Origin: Eledone cirrhosa
Taxonomy: Eukaryota
Direction: 5' to 3'
Length of the DNA stretch: 64,000 bases
Assembly (NCBI GenBank): GCA_964016885.1
Contig: CAXHJY010000482.1
Coordinates: 1 to 64,000 of the forward strand
The notes below the pieces were generated by a model. It saw only the letters and a list, made by a program, of their open reading frames with translations. It made no database searches and was not told the origin of the DNA. Positions 45,133 through 50,770 of the stretch are shown here, piece after piece. How positions within the stretch are numbered: position 1 is the stretch's first letter; every line of letters begins with the position of its first letter. A program made the position numbers and the translations under genes.

Positions 45133-45137
<5 letters not shown>

Positions 45138-45178
45138 ATACTTTGGGAGAGTCATGTTGCCAATAAAATCACACGCAC
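45133..45178 (-). mobile_element. Penelope-element terminus capping the satellite array
   Basis: ttgttatactttgggagagtcatgttgccaataaaatcacacgcac versus 22141 ttgttatactttgggagggtcatgttgccaataagaaacacacgcac. Confidence 0.85.
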
Positions 45179-48100
45179 GGATTTCGTTTTTCGTTAACTC
45201 GTGCGCCGATTTTTCGATACTCGATCTTTCTAATATATTTAGCTCTGGACATAGCTATCCACCAGTTAATTTTATTGCTCATATTTTGTCGATTCTATTG
45301 AGTGATGAATAGCTTTTGTTTTATTTTAACATGTCTATTGAGCACTCTAATTCGATATGTGTATTTCCACATTCACTCGAATTATTTTCGCGGATATAGG
45401 GGTCATCTCCCTTGTCTAATGCCATGTGCGTTTTTCACCGCTAGTTGACTCCTTTGCCGCCAGGATAAAACTCGTTGACGACGTAAACTCCATTCCACTT
45501 ATTCTAGTAGGCTTTTATATTTATATGTGAGCTGATAGAGTACTGTCTAAGGATTTACAGAAACCCATGAAGCTAGATTTAACACCTTTCTAGTGGGTCC
45601 GGGTATGATTTTACATTCATTTAAATTATTGACGTATTGTTTTATTGATATTTTTTATCTGTTTGGCCCGAATCTTCCTTTATCGATTTTAAATCGTATG
45701 GTTGATTGTAGACTTGTTCTATATGTGACGGTATTTTAACGATAGTTATAGCTCTGATTCATCTGAATTATTGAGCCCTCTGCCGCTCATATCGGATTTC
45801 GTTTTTCGTTAACTCGTGCGCCGATTTTTCGATACTCGATCTTTCTAATATATTTAGCTCTGGACATAGCTATCCACCAGTTAATTTTATTGCTCATATT
45901 TTGTCGATTCTATTGAGTGATGAATAGCTTTTGTTTTATTTTAACATGTCTATTGAGCACTCTAATTCGATATGTGTATTTCCACATTCACTCGAATTAT
46001 TTTCGCGGATATAGGGGTCATCTCCCTTGTCTAATGCCATGTGCGTTTTTCACCGCTAGTTGACTCCTTTGCCGCCAGGATAAAACTCGTTGACGACGTA
46101 AACTCCATTCCACTTATTCTAGTAGGCTTTTATATTTATATGTGAGCTGATAGAGTACTGTCTAAGGATTTACAGAAACCCATGAAGCTAGATTTAACAC
46201 CTTTCTAGTGGGTCCGGGTATGATTTTACATTCATTTAAATTATTGACGTATTGTTTTATTGATATTTTTTATCTGTTTGGCCCGAATCTTCCTTTATCG
46301 ATTTTAAATCGTATGGTTGATTGTAGACTTGTTCTATATGTGACGGTATTTTAACGATAGTTATAGCTCTGATTCATCTGAATTATTGAGCCCTCTGCCG
46401 CTCATATCGGATTTCGTTTTTCGTTAACTCGTGCGCCGATTTTTCGATACTCGATCTTTCTAATATATTTAGCTCTGGACATAGCTATCCACCAGTTAAT
46501 TTTATTGCTCATATTTTGTCGATTCTATTGAGTGATGAATAGCTTTTGTTTTATTTTAACATGTCTATTGAGCACTCTAATTCGATATGTGTATTTCCAC
46601 ATTCACTCGAATTATTTTCGCGGATATAGGGGTCATCTCCCTTGTCTAATGCCATGTGCGTTTTTCACCGCTAGTTGACTCCTTTGCCGCCAGGATAAAA
46701 CTCGTTGACGACGTAAACTCCATTCCACTTATTCTAGTAGGCTTTTATATTTATATGTGAGCTGATAGAGTACTGTCTAAGGATTTACAGAAACCCATGA
46801 AGCTAGATTTAACACCTTTCTAGTGGGTCCGGGTATGATTTTACATTCATTTAAATTATTGACGTATTGTTTTATTGATATTTTTTATCTGTTTGGCCCG
46901 AATCTTCCTTTATCGATTTTAAATCGTATGGTTGATTGTAGACTTGTTCTATATGTGACGGTATTTTAACGATAGTTATAGCTCTGATTCATCTGAATTA
47001 TTGAGCCCTCTGCCGCTCATATCGGATTTCGTTTTTCGTTAACTCGTGCGCCGATTTTTCGATACTCGATCTTTCTAATATATTTAGCTCTGGACATAGC
47101 TATCCACCAGTTAATTTTATTGCTCATATTTTGTCGATTCTATTGAGTGATGAATAGCTTTTGTTTTATTTTAACATGTCTATTGAGCACTCTAATTCGA
47201 TATGTGTATTTCCACATTCACTCGAATTATTTTCGCGGATATAGGGGTCATCTCCCTTGTCTAATGCCATGTGCGTTTTTCACCGCTAGTTGACTCCTTT
47301 GCCGCCAGGATAAAACTCGTTGACGACGTAAACTCCATTCCACTTATTCTAGTAGGCTTTTATATTTATATGTGAGCTGATAGAGTACTGTCTAAGGATT
47401 TACAGAAACCCATGAAGCTAGATTTAACACCTTTCTAGTGGGTCCGGGTATGATTTTACATTCATTTAAATTATTGACGTATTGTTTTATTGATATTTTT
47501 TATCTGTTTGGCCCGAATCTTCCTTTATCGATTTTAAATCGTATGGTTGATTGTAGACTTGTTCTATATGTGACGGTATTTTAACGATAGTTATAGCTCT
47601 GATTCATCTGAATTATTGAGCCCTCTGCCGCTCATATCGGATTTCGTTTTTCGTTAACTCGTGCGCCGATTTTTCGATACTCGATCTTTCTAATATATTT
47701 AGCTCTGGACATAGCTATCCACCAGTTAATTTTATTGCTCATATTTTGTCGATTCTATTGAGTGATGAATAGCTTTTGTTTTATTTTAACATGTCTATTG
47801 AGCACTCTAATTCGATATGTGTATTTCCACATTCACTCGAATTATTTTCGCGGATATAGGGGTCATCTCCCTTGTCTAATGCCATGTGCGTTTTTCACCG
47901 CTAGTTGACTCCTTTGCCGCCAGGATAAAACTCGTTGACGACGTAAACTCCATTCCACTTATTCTAGTAGGCTTTTATATTTATATGTGAGCTGATAGAG
48001 TACTGTCTAAGGATTTACAGAAACCCATGAAGCTAGATTTAACACCTTTCTAGTGGGTCCGGGTATGATTTTACATTCATTTAAATTATTGACGTATTGT

Positions 48101-50761
48101 TTTATTGATATTTTTTATCTGTTTGGCCCGAATCTTCCTTTATCGATTTTAAATCGTATGGTTGATTGTAGACTTGTTCTATATGTGACGGTATTTTAAC
48201 GATAGTTATAGCTCTGATTCATCTGAATTATTGAGCCCTCTGCCGCTCATATCGGATTTCGTTTTTCGTTAACTCGTGCGCCGATTTTTCGATACTCGAT
48301 CTTTCTAATATATTTAGCTCTGGACATAGCTATCCACCAGTTAATTTTATTGCTCATATTTTGTCGATTCTATTGAGTGATGAATAGCTTTTGTTTTATT
48401 TTAACATGTCTATTGAGCACTCTAATTCGATATGTGTATTTCCACATTCACTCGAATTATTTTCGCGGATATAGGGGTCATCTCCCTTGTCTAATGCCAT
48501 GTGCGTTTTTCACCGCTAGTTGACTCCTTTGCCGCCAGGATAAAACTCGTTGACGACGTAAACTCCATTCCACTTATTCTAGTAGGCTTTTATATTTATA
48601 TGTGAGCTGATAGAGTACTGTCTAAGGATTTACAGAAACCCATGAAGCTAGATTTAACACCTTTCTAGTGGGTCCGGGTATGATTTTACATTCATTTAAA
48701 TTATTGACGTATTGTTTTATTGATATTTTTTATCTGTTTGGCCCGAATCTTCCTTTATCGATTTTAAATCGTATGGTTGATTGTAGACTTGTTCTATATG
48801 TGACGGTATTTTAACGATAGTTATAGCTCTGATTCATCTGAATTATTGAGCCCTCTGCCGCTCATATCGGATTTCGTTTTTCGTTAACTCGTGCGCCGAT
48901 TTTTCGATACTCGATCTTTCTAATATATTTAGCTCTGGACATAGCTATCCACCAGTTAATTTTATTGCTCATATTTTGTCGATTCTATTGAGTGATGAAT
49001 AGCTTTTGTTTTATTTTAACATGTCTATTGAGCACTCTAATTCGATATGTGTATTTCCACATTCACTCGAATTATTTTCGCGGATATAGGGGTCATCTCC
49101 CTTGTCTAATGCCATGTGCGTTTTTCACCGCTAGTTGACTCCTTTGCCGCCAGGATAAAACTCGTTGACGACGTAAACTCCATTCCACTTATTCTAGTAG
49201 GCTTTTATATTTATATGTGAGCTGATAGAGTACTGTCTAAGGATTTACAGAAACCCATGAAGCTAGATTTAACACCTTTCTAGTGGGTCCGGGTATGATT
49301 TTACATTCATTTAAATTATTGACGTATTGTTTTATTGATATTTTTTATCTGTTTGGCCCGAATCTTCCTTTATCGATTTTAAATCGTATGGTTGATTGTA
49401 GACTTGTTCTATATGTGACGGTATTTTAACGATAGTTATAGCTCTGATTCATCTGAATTATTGAGCCCTCTGCCGCTCATATCGGATTTCGTTTTTCGTT
49501 AACTCGTGCGCCGATTTTTCGATACTCGATCTTTCTAATATATTTAGCTCTGGACATAGCTATCCACCAGTTAATTTTATTGCTCATATTTTGTCGATTC
49601 TATTGAGTGATGAATAGCTTTTGTTTTATTTTAACATGTCTATTGAGCACTCTAATTCGATATGTGTATTTCCACATTCACTCGAATTATTTTCGCGGAT
49701 ATAGGGGTCATCTCCCTTGTCTAATGCCATGTGCGTTTTTCACCGCTAGTTGACTCCTTTGCCGCCAGGATAAAACTCGTTGACGACGTAAACTCCATTC
49801 CACTTATTCTAGTAGGCTTTTATATTTATATGTGAGCTGATAGAGTACTGTCTAAGGATTTACAGAAACCCATGAAGCTAGATTTAACACCTTTCTAGTG
49901 GGTCCGGGTATGATTTTACATTCATTTAAATTATTGACGTATTGTTTTATTGATATTTTTTATCTGTTTGGCCCGAATCTTCCTTTATCGATTTTAAATC
50001 GTATGGTTGATTGTAGACTTGTTCTATATGTGACGGTATTTTAACGATAGTTATAGCTCTGATTCATCTGAATTATTGAGCCCTCTGCCGCTCATATCGG
50101 ATTTCGTTTTTCGTTAACTCGTGCGCCGATTTTTCGATACTCGATCTTTCTAATATATTTAGCTCTGGACATAGCTATCCACCAGTTAATTTTATTGCTC
50201 ATATTTTGTCGATTCTATTGAGTGATGAATAGCTTTTGTTTTATTTTAACATGTCTATTGAGCACTCTAATTCGATATGTGTATTTCCACATTCACTCGA
50301 ATTATTTTCGCGGATATAGGGGTCATCTCCCTTGTCTAATGCCATGTGCGTTTTTCACCGCTAGTTGACTCCTTTGCCGCCAGGATAAAACTCGTTGACG
50401 ACGTAAACTCCATTCCACTTATTCTAGTAGGCTTTTATATTTATATGTGAGCTGATAGAGTACTGTCTAAGGATTTACAGAAACCCATGAAGCTAGATTT
50501 AACACCTTTCTAGTGGGTCCGGGTATGATTTTACATTCATTTAAATTATTGACGTATTGTTTTATTGATATTTTTTATCTGTTTGGCCCGAATCTTCCTT
50601 TATCGATTTTAAATCGTATGGTTGATTGTAGACTTGTTCTATATGTGACGGTATTTTAACGATAGTTATAGCTCTGATTCATCTGAATTATTGAGCCCTC
50701 TGCCGCTCATATCGGATTTCGTTTTTCGTTAACTCGTGCGCCGATTTTTCGATACTCGATC

Positions 50762-50770
<9 letters not shown>
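45179..50770 (+). repeat. Tandem array of a 615-bp non-coding unit, 9 full copies plus a partial tenth
   Basis: atttcgtttttcgttaactc starts at 45181, 45796, 46411, 47026, 47641, 48256, 48871, 49486, 50101 and 50716. No differences between units were seen by eye, and the track has no ORF inside the array. Confidence 0.98.

What the first reader, a model, noticed from the sequence alone, without database searches (positions are those of the whole stretch)
45133..50770. 615-bp homogeneous tandem array that looks like a retrotransposed multimer of a structured (possibly circular) non-coding RNA
Seen: about 9.1 apparently identical, complex, ORF-less 615-bp units inserted in (TA)n. The left end is capped by 46 bp of the Penelope-element terminus found at 22141. 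The right end lies at the same homologous position as the right end of its diverged relative at 13114. Known: Penelope-like elements (PLEs) form partial tandems, and animal non-LTR retrozymes are short tandem repeats that yield circular RNAs and are proposed to use PLE machinery. Inference: the array was made in one event by rolling-circle or reiterative reverse transcription from a fixed start. That would make it a PLE-dependent non-autonomous RNA element, larger than typical retrozymes and lacking a canonical hammerhead.
Basis: partly seen in the sequence, partly recalled or inferred. Interest (0 to 1): 0.88.

Follow-up and report, generated by a model that had tools for sequence, protein, structure and literature searches.

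The report
Tandem retrozyme with a disguised hammerhead
The 615-base array is one of about 750 young copies of a non-coding repeat that ends at one fixed point inside TA runs and keeps an unusual hammerhead-like fold, so it is likely a self-cutting RNA that likely closes into a circle and is likely copied round and round into the genome by a Penelope-type reverse transcriptase, which would make a long-proposed copying step testable.

Summary
In detail: 9.1 identical 615-bp units in (TA)n. The array belongs to a dispersed family with 747 exact 3' ends in TA, 1,423 internal junctions, 5' ends at any phase and subfamilies averaging 71% identity. Each unit holds a non-canonical type I hammerhead on the + strand (45470-45604, predicted cut after 45599). 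It has U3 with A8/G8, an extra base on each side of a ~77-nt stem II, covarying helices and a downstream strand predicted to switch it off. The fixed insertion end lies 249 nt past the cut. 5' ends pile up just after the cut (11 of 67 copies reaching it), yet 56 of 76 copies cross it. Differences between arrays are nearly all array-wide. Best reading: a large non-LTR retrozyme whose circular monomer is reverse-transcribed for several laps by TA-targeting Penelope-like machinery. A young, intact Hydra-type element is the leading, unproven helper. The 46-bp cap is incidental. Self-cleavage, the RNA circle and the helper are inferred, not shown. New variant of a known kind.

The parts
45178..50768 (+). 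Array of 9.09 identical 615-bp units: one 5'-truncated insertion whose fixed 3' end is at 50768
   Evidence: the same 3' end occurs at 747 places in the genome
45470..45604 (+). Variant type I hammerhead, first of nine copies (repeat every 615 bp): stem I 45470-45474 with 45600-45604; core U3-A9 45475-45481; extra base 45482; long stem II 45483-45558; extra A 45559; G12-A14 45560-45562; stem III 45563-45598; C17 45599
   Evidence: alignment A2, minimum-energy fold, core column counts, pair counts
45599..45600 (+). Predicted self-cleavage and ligation junction (last copy 50519/50520, 249 nt before the fixed 3' end)
   Evidence: inferred from the fold; 5' ends of genomic copies pile up just 3' of it
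45666..45670 (+). Alternative partner of the stem I 3' strand; predicted off-switch that brings the two cut ends side by side in the circle
   Evidence: stem I probability >0.5 in 32 of 39 copies without it, 0 of 39 with it
50755..50773 (+). Internal priming site: inside the array the unit continues with 5 bases that match (TA)n; at the end it runs into the TA tract
   Evidence: both PLE families in this genome end the same way
45081..45132 (.). (TA)n target, left part
50769..50797 (.). (TA)n target, right part
45133..45178 (-). 46-bp inverted 3' end of a Neptune-like PLE at the 5' junction; incidental, possibly older than the array
12364..13114 (+). Older subfamily member, 1.3 units of 591 bp, with the same 3' phase and its own hammerhead variant at about 12774-12909 (U3-A8)
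22138..23089 (+). 3' fragment of a Neptune-like PLE with an inverted 274-bp copy, a minimal hammerhead (about 22836-22878) and a tail; source family of the cap, not homologous to the unit

Best explanation
The array is one insertion of a dispersed, non-coding, TA-targeted repeat whose + strand RNA is predicted to cut itself with a variant type I hammerhead, likely closes into a 615-nt circle, and is likely reverse-transcribed for several laps into a nicked (TA)n tract by a Penelope-like element's protein. SHOWN: copy number, fixed 3' end in TA, 5' ends at any phase, array-wide haplotypes, conserved hammerhead core and helices, excess of 5' ends just after the predicted cut. INFERRED: (1) a copy holding two cut sites is transcribed through (promoter not found); (2) stem I forms before the downstream partner is made, so the RNA cuts after C17; (3) the monomer refolds into the off state with both ends adjacent and a host ligase such as RtcB closes it (RtcB ligation was assayed for other retrozymes, PMC7229834); (4) the PLE endonuclease nicks (TA)n and the RT starts internally, 249 nt past the cut, where the template itself matches TA; (5) on an unligated monomer the RT runs off at the cut, giving 225-249-bp copies, while on a circle it goes round, giving arrays of up to at least 18 units. 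The leading helper candidate is a young Hydra-type PLE (about 0.35 for that specific element).
For: Ends: 747 exact right ends in TA, control pattern 0; 18 of 19 scored arrays end at that base; 18 of 18 left ends fall at different phases; 100 of 138 classed 5' ends lie within 8 nt of a TA run. Hammerhead: in 39 copies averaging 71% identity, U4, G5 and A9 are 39 of 39, A6 is 38 of 39 and position 7 is free. This half of the core was not in the search pattern. Stem I is 96.4% paired, its 5' strand varying almost only C/U. The minimum-energy fold of 45468-45607 is the three-way junction, and a relaxed descriptor hit 0 of 300 shuffles. U3-A8 is a known active covariation (PMC3088659) and occurs in PLE hammerheads (PMC4209133). 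Selection on structure: 12 double changes on internal branches against 2.8 +/- 1.6 (0 of 300) and at most 7 in 25 column-shuffled refolds. Cut-site footprint: 17 of 86 5' ends in the 28 nt after the cut (P = 3e-7); 11 of 67 copies stop at 225-249 nt, against at most 4 in any of 25 other 25-nt bins. Circle: 56 of 76 copies cross the cut and 43 exceed one unit; 40 multi-unit loci show 23 haplotypes, with 283 array-wide against 45 partial differences; long arrays are commoner among copies near the newest haplotype (9 of 19 against 6 of 57); one public run holds a single closed 615-nt contig and none of the flanking host repeats. Helper: an 832-aa PLE with Hydra motifs (PMC8557442 section 11) has dozens of intact copies (28 of 29 compared are 99.2-100% identical to a reference copy) and TA-flush internal 3' ends.
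Against: No cleavage assay and no run on record as RNA. Position 3-8 is U-A in 27 of 39 copies but a U.G wobble in 8 (including this array) and a C.A mismatch in 4, and the extra A before G12 has no tested precedent that I found, so activity may be low or lost in some lineages. The 3' half of the core was fixed by my search pattern. With downstream sequence present the active fold is disfavoured by 3.6 kcal/mol. The hammerhead region is not unusually stable (z = -1.07). The 5' pile-up could be RT stalling at stem III rather than run-off. Six of 40 arrays carry a variant in several but not all units, and five carry a partial variant also seen at other loci; one circle does not give this without later conversion or template switching. 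No sequence homology to either PLE family examined. Inverted self-copies, typical of PLEs, were not seen among the 100 right ends listed. The closed contig's run is of unknown kind, and a tandem array also collapses into such a contig.
Confidence: 0.7

Rival explanations
1. It is the same element and helper but with no circle. Templates are linear, partly cut read-through multimers, or monomers joined by repeated RT jumps at the cut ends, and arrays are lengthened in place by unequal crossover (the satellite route discussed in bioRxiv 10.64898/2026.07.22.740005). In a sub-case the hammerhead is vestigial and only the fold is kept.
For: Multi-unit copies also end just after a cut site (e.g. L096 exactly at it, L036, L042, L329). 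There are mosaic arrays such as L047. The newest haplotype has a U3.G8 wobble. PLE insertion in vitro did not need hammerhead cleavage (PMC11167929, part 2).
Against: Linear templates can only shorten arrays, yet 23 stepwise haplotypes are each array-wide and 9 arrays carry an array-wide variant seen in none of the other 59 loci with a full unit. Twelve arrays on several chromosomes share one haplotype with 0-2 private changes, too young for independent local growth. Unit junctions are base-exact.
Confidence: 0.16
2. It is a retrozyme-like RNA mobilised by a non-PLE reverse transcriptase, such as an R4/Dong- or RTE-type LINE.
For: Fragments of other RT elements lie in the fetched loci (clade labels from recalled motifs). 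Dong-R4 and RTE families are reported as recently active in an octopus genome (PMC13282606, Table 1). The unit has no homology to the two PLE families tested.
Against: The 3' end is internal to a continuing template rather than at an RNA end or tail. That feature is reported for a PLE (PMC11167929) and seen in both PLE families here. TA targeting and type I hammerheads are PLE traits (PMC8557442).
Confidence: 0.08
3. It is a DNA rolling-circle (Helitron- or Helentron-like) non-autonomous element that makes head-to-tail arrays from a DNA circle.
For: One fixed end, one variable end and tandem arrays also arise from rolling-circle DNA transposition (recalled). A closed contig without host repeats could be an amplified DNA circle.
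Against: The hammerhead core and three stems are conserved. One-sided changes keep G-U pairs on the + strand far more often than on the - strand (116 against 39, partly built into the fold). 5' ends pile up at the predicted RNA cut. The terminal bases differ between subfamilies, unlike Helitron ends (recalled).
Confidence: 0.04
4. The array is an assembly artefact or an ordinary satellite.
For: It has 0 differences over 5.6 kb, lies on an unplaced contig, and raw long reads were not available.
Against: Arrays of 2 to at least 18 units lie at many chromosomal loci with different flanks, different left phases, their own haplotypes and scattered private changes.
Confidence: 0.02

Closest known systems
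Animal non-LTR retrozymes (Cervera and de la Pena 2020, PMC7229834; Li et al. 2026, bioRxiv 10.64898/2026.07.22.740005)
   Same: Non-coding, low-GC (36%) tandem repeat with one type I hammerhead per unit; dispersed monomers to multimers; no LTR, PBS or PPT seen; co-occurs with PLEs.
   Different: The unit of about 570-620 bp is larger than the 150-450 bp described in 2020, though within the 51-972 bp range of the 2026 survey. The core is non-canonical (U3 with A8/G8, extra base on both sides of stem II), with a 73-78-nt stem II and an extended stem III. It has a strict (TA)n target and a fixed internal 3' end 249 nt past the cut, which I did not find described in the parts read. There is no homology to the pLTRs of the two PLE families tested.
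Penelope-like elements and their pLTR hammerheads (Neptune and Hydra clades; PMC8557442, PMC4209133, PMC11167929)
   Same: (TA)n targeting, 5' truncation, partial tandems, internal start of reverse transcription, type I hammerhead upstream of the 3' end, U3-A8 covariation and an extra base 5' of helix II. By eye, the young Hydra-type PLE here also has an extra base on both sides of helix II.
   Different: No ORF; full-size monomer-type hammerhead instead of a minimal one; up to 18 or more perfect laps; inverted self-copies not seen among 100 listed ends.
Non-autonomous Chlamys elements such as MRC1 (PMC8557442, passage)
   Same: [quoted passage not shown]
   Different: Those share 3' sequence with their helper and mostly lack hammerheads; they are in green algae.
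Plant LTR retrozymes and hammerhead viroids (described in PMC7229834; switch logic recalled)
   Same: Circle of about 600 nt; a mutually exclusive fold predicted to protect the circle from re-cutting; an extra base after A9, as in one viroid hammerhead (title seen in the reference list of PMC4209133, details recalled).
   Different: Type I rather than type III hammerhead, no LTRs, one polarity only, branched rather than rod-like fold (59% paired).

Membership tests
Non-LTR retrozyme | Tandem repeats of a short non-coding unit, dispersed as monomers to multimers | tested here: met
Non-LTR retrozyme | A type I hammerhead in every unit | tested here: met
   Variant type I topology in 39 of 39 aligned copies and all 9 units
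Non-LTR retrozyme | Low GC, no LTR/PBS/PPT organisation | tested here: met
   GC 35.9%; 5' ends at any phase, so no terminal repeats; PBS and PPT were not searched separately
Non-LTR retrozyme | Self-cleavage and expression as circular RNA | not testable with these tools
   Indirect only: 5' pile-up at the cut and one closed contig in a run of unknown kind
Hammerhead ribozyme, canonical core | C3-G8 pair and a 10.1-11.1 pair directly next to A9 and G12 | tested here: not met
   3-8 is U-A 27, U.G 8, C.A 4 of 39; one extra base on each side, A.A 34, C.A 4, G.A 1. It is a variant core, not a canonical one.
Hammerhead ribozyme, variant core | U4, G5, A6, free 7, A9, G12, A13, A14, A15.1-U16.1, H17 at a junction of three helices | tested here: met
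   (the 3' half was selected by the search pattern, the 5' half was not); folds
Non-autonomous Penelope-like element | Fixed internal 3' end, 5' truncation, partial tandems, microsatellite target | tested here: met
Non-autonomous Penelope-like element | Sequence similarity to the pLTR or 3' end of an autonomous PLE | tested here: inconclusive
   None to the two families tested; other PLE families exist and were not fetched whole
Non-autonomous Penelope-like element | Inverted 5'-adjacent copy of the element itself | tested here: not met
   No close inverted pair among the 100 of 747 right ends listed; 5' junctions are TA or ends of other repeats
Helitron/Helentron | Conserved terminal motifs (5' TC, 3' hairpin plus CTRR, or subterminal inverted repeats; recalled) | tested here: not met
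   Terminal bases differ between subfamilies and the left end is free

The most novel reading that the evidence does not exclude
The 615-nt circle is not just a transposition intermediate but a viroid-like RNA lineage that propagates and evolves off the chromosome. The genomic arrays are then dated snapshots of it, taken by a Penelope-like RT. This fits the ladder of array-wide haplotypes and a public run holding one closed 615-nt haplotype, 8 changes from this array, with none of the host repeats on the stretches laid.
Probability: 0.15. Interest if true: 0.88.

Novelty: new variant of a known kind. Interest (0 to 1): 0.64.

Why it matters
How animal retrozymes get into genomes is proposed, not shown. 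One model is tandem cDNA from a circle made by PLE machinery (PMC7229834, Discussion); another is local growth by unequal crossover (bioRxiv 10.64898/2026.07.22.740005, Discussion). This family is young and numerous enough to record the reaction: where the RT starts, where it runs off a cut monomer, and how often it goes round. A near-contemporary intact PLE is on hand for an in vitro test. The hammerhead is missed by Rfam here and would fail canonical descriptors, so retrozymes of this build may be badly undercounted. It also offers a natural test of a core with an extra base on both sides of stem II, and of U3.G8 against U3-A8.

Tried and rejected
Rfam gave no ribozyme hit on the unit or among the 150 of 195 rows shown for 11 loci. 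It also missed the PLE minimal hammerhead used as a control, so the blank is uninformative. By eye I tried hairpin, twister, HDV-like and type II/III hammerhead registers on both strands; none fitted. Sequencing-run search: no RNA holder listed. The one run guessed as RNA gave 8 short pieces and was not used. Metagenome pattern scan: 11 hits; only the one of matching length was read, and it was an unrelated satellite. A loose pattern in viral contigs gave 120 or more hits that look like chance and were not followed. No empty allele of this locus among the 40 scored candidates, so the age of the cap relative to the array is open. An all-against-all mutual-information ranking was dominated by relatedness and dropped. 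One pair in the structure counted (helix 4) was misplaced by alignment gaps. No covariance model was built. Target-site duplications cannot be read in (TA)n. The look-ups of earlier findings returned nothing. I first took the 832-aa PLE for a Naiad; its C-terminal endonuclease and motifs fit Hydra.
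Full report
Observation. Nine consecutive 615-bp units from 45179 are identical, with periodicity from 45178 to 50773; the element ends at 50768 and runs into (TA)n. No stop-free frame in the array exceeds 62 codons. The 46 bases to the left match, inverted, the 3' end of a Penelope-like element (PLE) whose other copies carry RT and GIY-YIG frames. 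The relative at 12364-13114 is a 1.3-mer of a 591-bp unit ending at the same phase. The host looks like an octopus from its recalled SINE sequence; I did not test this.

The family. The exact right end followed by TA occurs 747 times (reversed control 0) and the internal junction 1,423 times. Arrays reach at least 18 units in the 100 rows listed. Of 19 arrays scored, 18 end at the same base, while 18 of 18 left ends differ. A conserved bipartite motif occurs 4,870 times. Thirty-nine near-full copies, chosen for diversity from loci holding that motif, average 71% identity (minimum 51%), have periods of 539-619 bp where tandem, and share the same 3' phase. An automatic classification of 140 loci placed 100 of 138 usable 5' ends within 8 nt of a TA run. 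The other 38 include boundary errors and ends of several unrelated repeats. The window's cap is therefore one of many junction types. It is unique in the genome and 1 base from its nearest 10 relatives, so it is not copied from an abundant identical PLE and may predate the array. No empty allele was found.

A structured + strand RNA. The consensus fold of 39 copies has -130.5 kcal/mol on the + strand against -107.7 on the - strand and -50.6 +/- 5.6 for 25 column shuffles. On internal branches of a tree, which exclude post-insertion damage, 150 predicted pairs show 12 double changes. Matched random partners give 2.8 +/- 1.6 (0 of 300 reach 12) and refolded shuffles at most 7. A single unit alone is only mildly stable (z = -2.18).

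The hammerhead. The most conserved columns form a type I hammerhead: stem I 45470-45474/45600-45604, core 45475-45481, one extra base, a 73-78-nt stem II in most copies, one extra A, G12-A14, stem III, and C17 at 45599. The region folds into exactly this junction at minimum energy. The 3' half of the core was imposed by my search pattern, but the 5' half, about 85 nt upstream, was not. There U4, G5 and A9 are 39 of 39, A6 is 38 of 39 and position 7 takes all four bases, as in the hammerhead consensus given in PMC3088659. Position 3-8 is U-A in 27 copies, U.G in 8 and C.A in 4. U3-A8 is reported active and natural (PMC3088659, part 3 of 8) and occurs in PLE hammerheads (PMC4209133, passages). 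Stem I is 96.4% paired, and the 18 pairs tested show 45 double-change cells against 10.3 in shuffles, a control that ignores relatedness. A relaxed descriptor hit the unit once and 0 of 300 shuffles. A second strand 66 nt downstream competes for the stem I 3' strand. Stem I has probability above 0.5 in 32 of 39 copies without it and 0 of 39 with it, and in the circular fold the two cut ends sit side by side. That reads as a co-transcriptional on-state and a protected circle. Activity is untested, and the wobble, the mismatch and the extra A are real doubts.

Footprint of the copying step. The cut lies 249 nt upstream of the fixed end. I took 76 of the first 84 right ends listed, leaving out 8 known long arrays. 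Among these, 11 of 67 copies that reach 225 nt stop at 225-249 nt, against at most 4 in any other 25-nt bin up to 650; 56 cross the cut and 43 exceed one unit. Nine were longer than the stretch fetched, and one abuts an N gap. Adding the long arrays, 17 of 86 5' ends lie in the 28 nt after the cut (P = 3e-7), with no excess of TA microhomology there. Run-off from a cut 5' end is the simplest reading; stalling at stem III is the alternative. In 40 loci with two or more fetched units, 283 differences from this array are shared by all units and 45 are not. There are 23 haplotypes, and 9 loci carry an array-wide variant absent from the other 59 loci with a full unit (60 of about 750 loci sampled). 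A new variant becoming array-wide again and again needs a monomer template read many times. Six mosaic arrays argue for some switching or later conversion. Copies of 1.9 kb or more are 9 of 19 at 98% identity or higher to this haplotype and 6 of 57 below, so arrays look long at birth.

Outside data. No holder run is on record as RNA, which says nothing about expression. Of 7 runs laid, X3 holds one 645-nt contig that closes on itself with a 615 period and has 8 changes from this array. It has no cover of the PLE cap or of a SINE that is very deep in a DNA-type run. This hints at a circle apart from host DNA, but the run's kind is unknown and a filter drops some records.

Helper. Both PLE families examined end internally, at a site where their own template continues with TA-like bases, and insert in (TA)n. 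This matches the internal initiation shown in vitro for a lizard PLE (PMC11167929, parts 1-2 of 4). Cap-family (Neptune-like, label from its zinc-finger motifs) copies are 97.9-99.5% identical to a reference copy. An 832-aa PLE with the Hydra motifs of PMC8557442 section 11 has dozens of intact copies, 28 of 29 compared being 99.2-100% identical, close in age to the young arrays. Neither is homologous to the unit, and other RT families are present. The helper is inferred from geometry, target and age only.

Comparison and novelty. It works like an animal non-LTR retrozyme (PMC7229834, passages; bioRxiv 10.64898/2026.07.22.740005, parts 1-3 of 5) and meets the sequence-level definition, except that the core is not canonical; cleavage and circles could not be tested. 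Nine literature searches listed no cephalopod retrozyme or hammerhead of this build. The library is partial, no supplements were read, and curated repeat libraries could already hold the consensus as an unclassified repeat. I also read PMC13282606 (part 1 of 3) and passages of PMC11014351.

Verdict. A real feature and a new variant of a known kind; best explanation 0.70; interest 0.64, mainly because it makes the proposed circle-plus-PLE route directly testable and exposes a hammerhead type that standard scans miss.

Noticed in passing
L270 (G000:C2 near 170.175 Mb) and L258-L299: A very young Hydra-type PLE with an 832-aa ORF (RWR, DKT and CxCX5C motifs, no CCHH). It has dozens of intact copies, a 4.2-kb partial-tandem period, two alternative 3' ends in (TA)n about 160 nt apart, and a minimal hammerhead with U4C and, by eye, an extra base on both sides of helix II.
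   Followed up: partly
window 45480 (core position 8): The newest haplotype differs from its predecessor by A8 to G in the hammerhead core (U3-A8 to U3.G8). G8 also occurs in other branches of the family, and a small subfamily has C3.A8.
   Followed up: partly
L047 (G000:C1:44273718-44282000): A 13-unit array is mosaic for one variant in units 5, 9, 10, 12 and 13 from the 3' end: template switching, conversion or an assembly effect.
   Followed up: no
window 44885-45080, 23135-23496, 31457-31570, 50798-50934, 62643-62834: Other short, TA-inserted, partly palindromic repeats form nests around the array; the one at 44885-45080 has about 3,000 first-look candidates. They may be further PLE ends or retrozyme-like families.
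   Followed up: no
L096, L107, L132, L057 flanks: A recurrent ~230-bp element with a long internal palindrome, inserted in TA, often sits next to family copies; not classified.
   Followed up: no
runs X1-X17: The unit is held by runs under 14 different coded organism labels, 9 runs with half or more of its words; the 7 laid show different haplotypes. This could mean several host species, or environmental samples.
   Followed up: partly
window 14766-16604, 23777-24650, 24799-25283, 27982-28365: Minisatellites (167/296 bp GTG-rich; 93 bp) and short tandems of a SINE-like repeat (181 and 197 bp).
   Followed up: no
alignment A2 columns 231-238 and 26-94: A CACGTG/CATGTG-type word upstream of the hammerhead and a long conserved hairpin just after the priming site are kept across subfamilies; they may be a promoter element and a protein-binding handle.
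   Followed up: no
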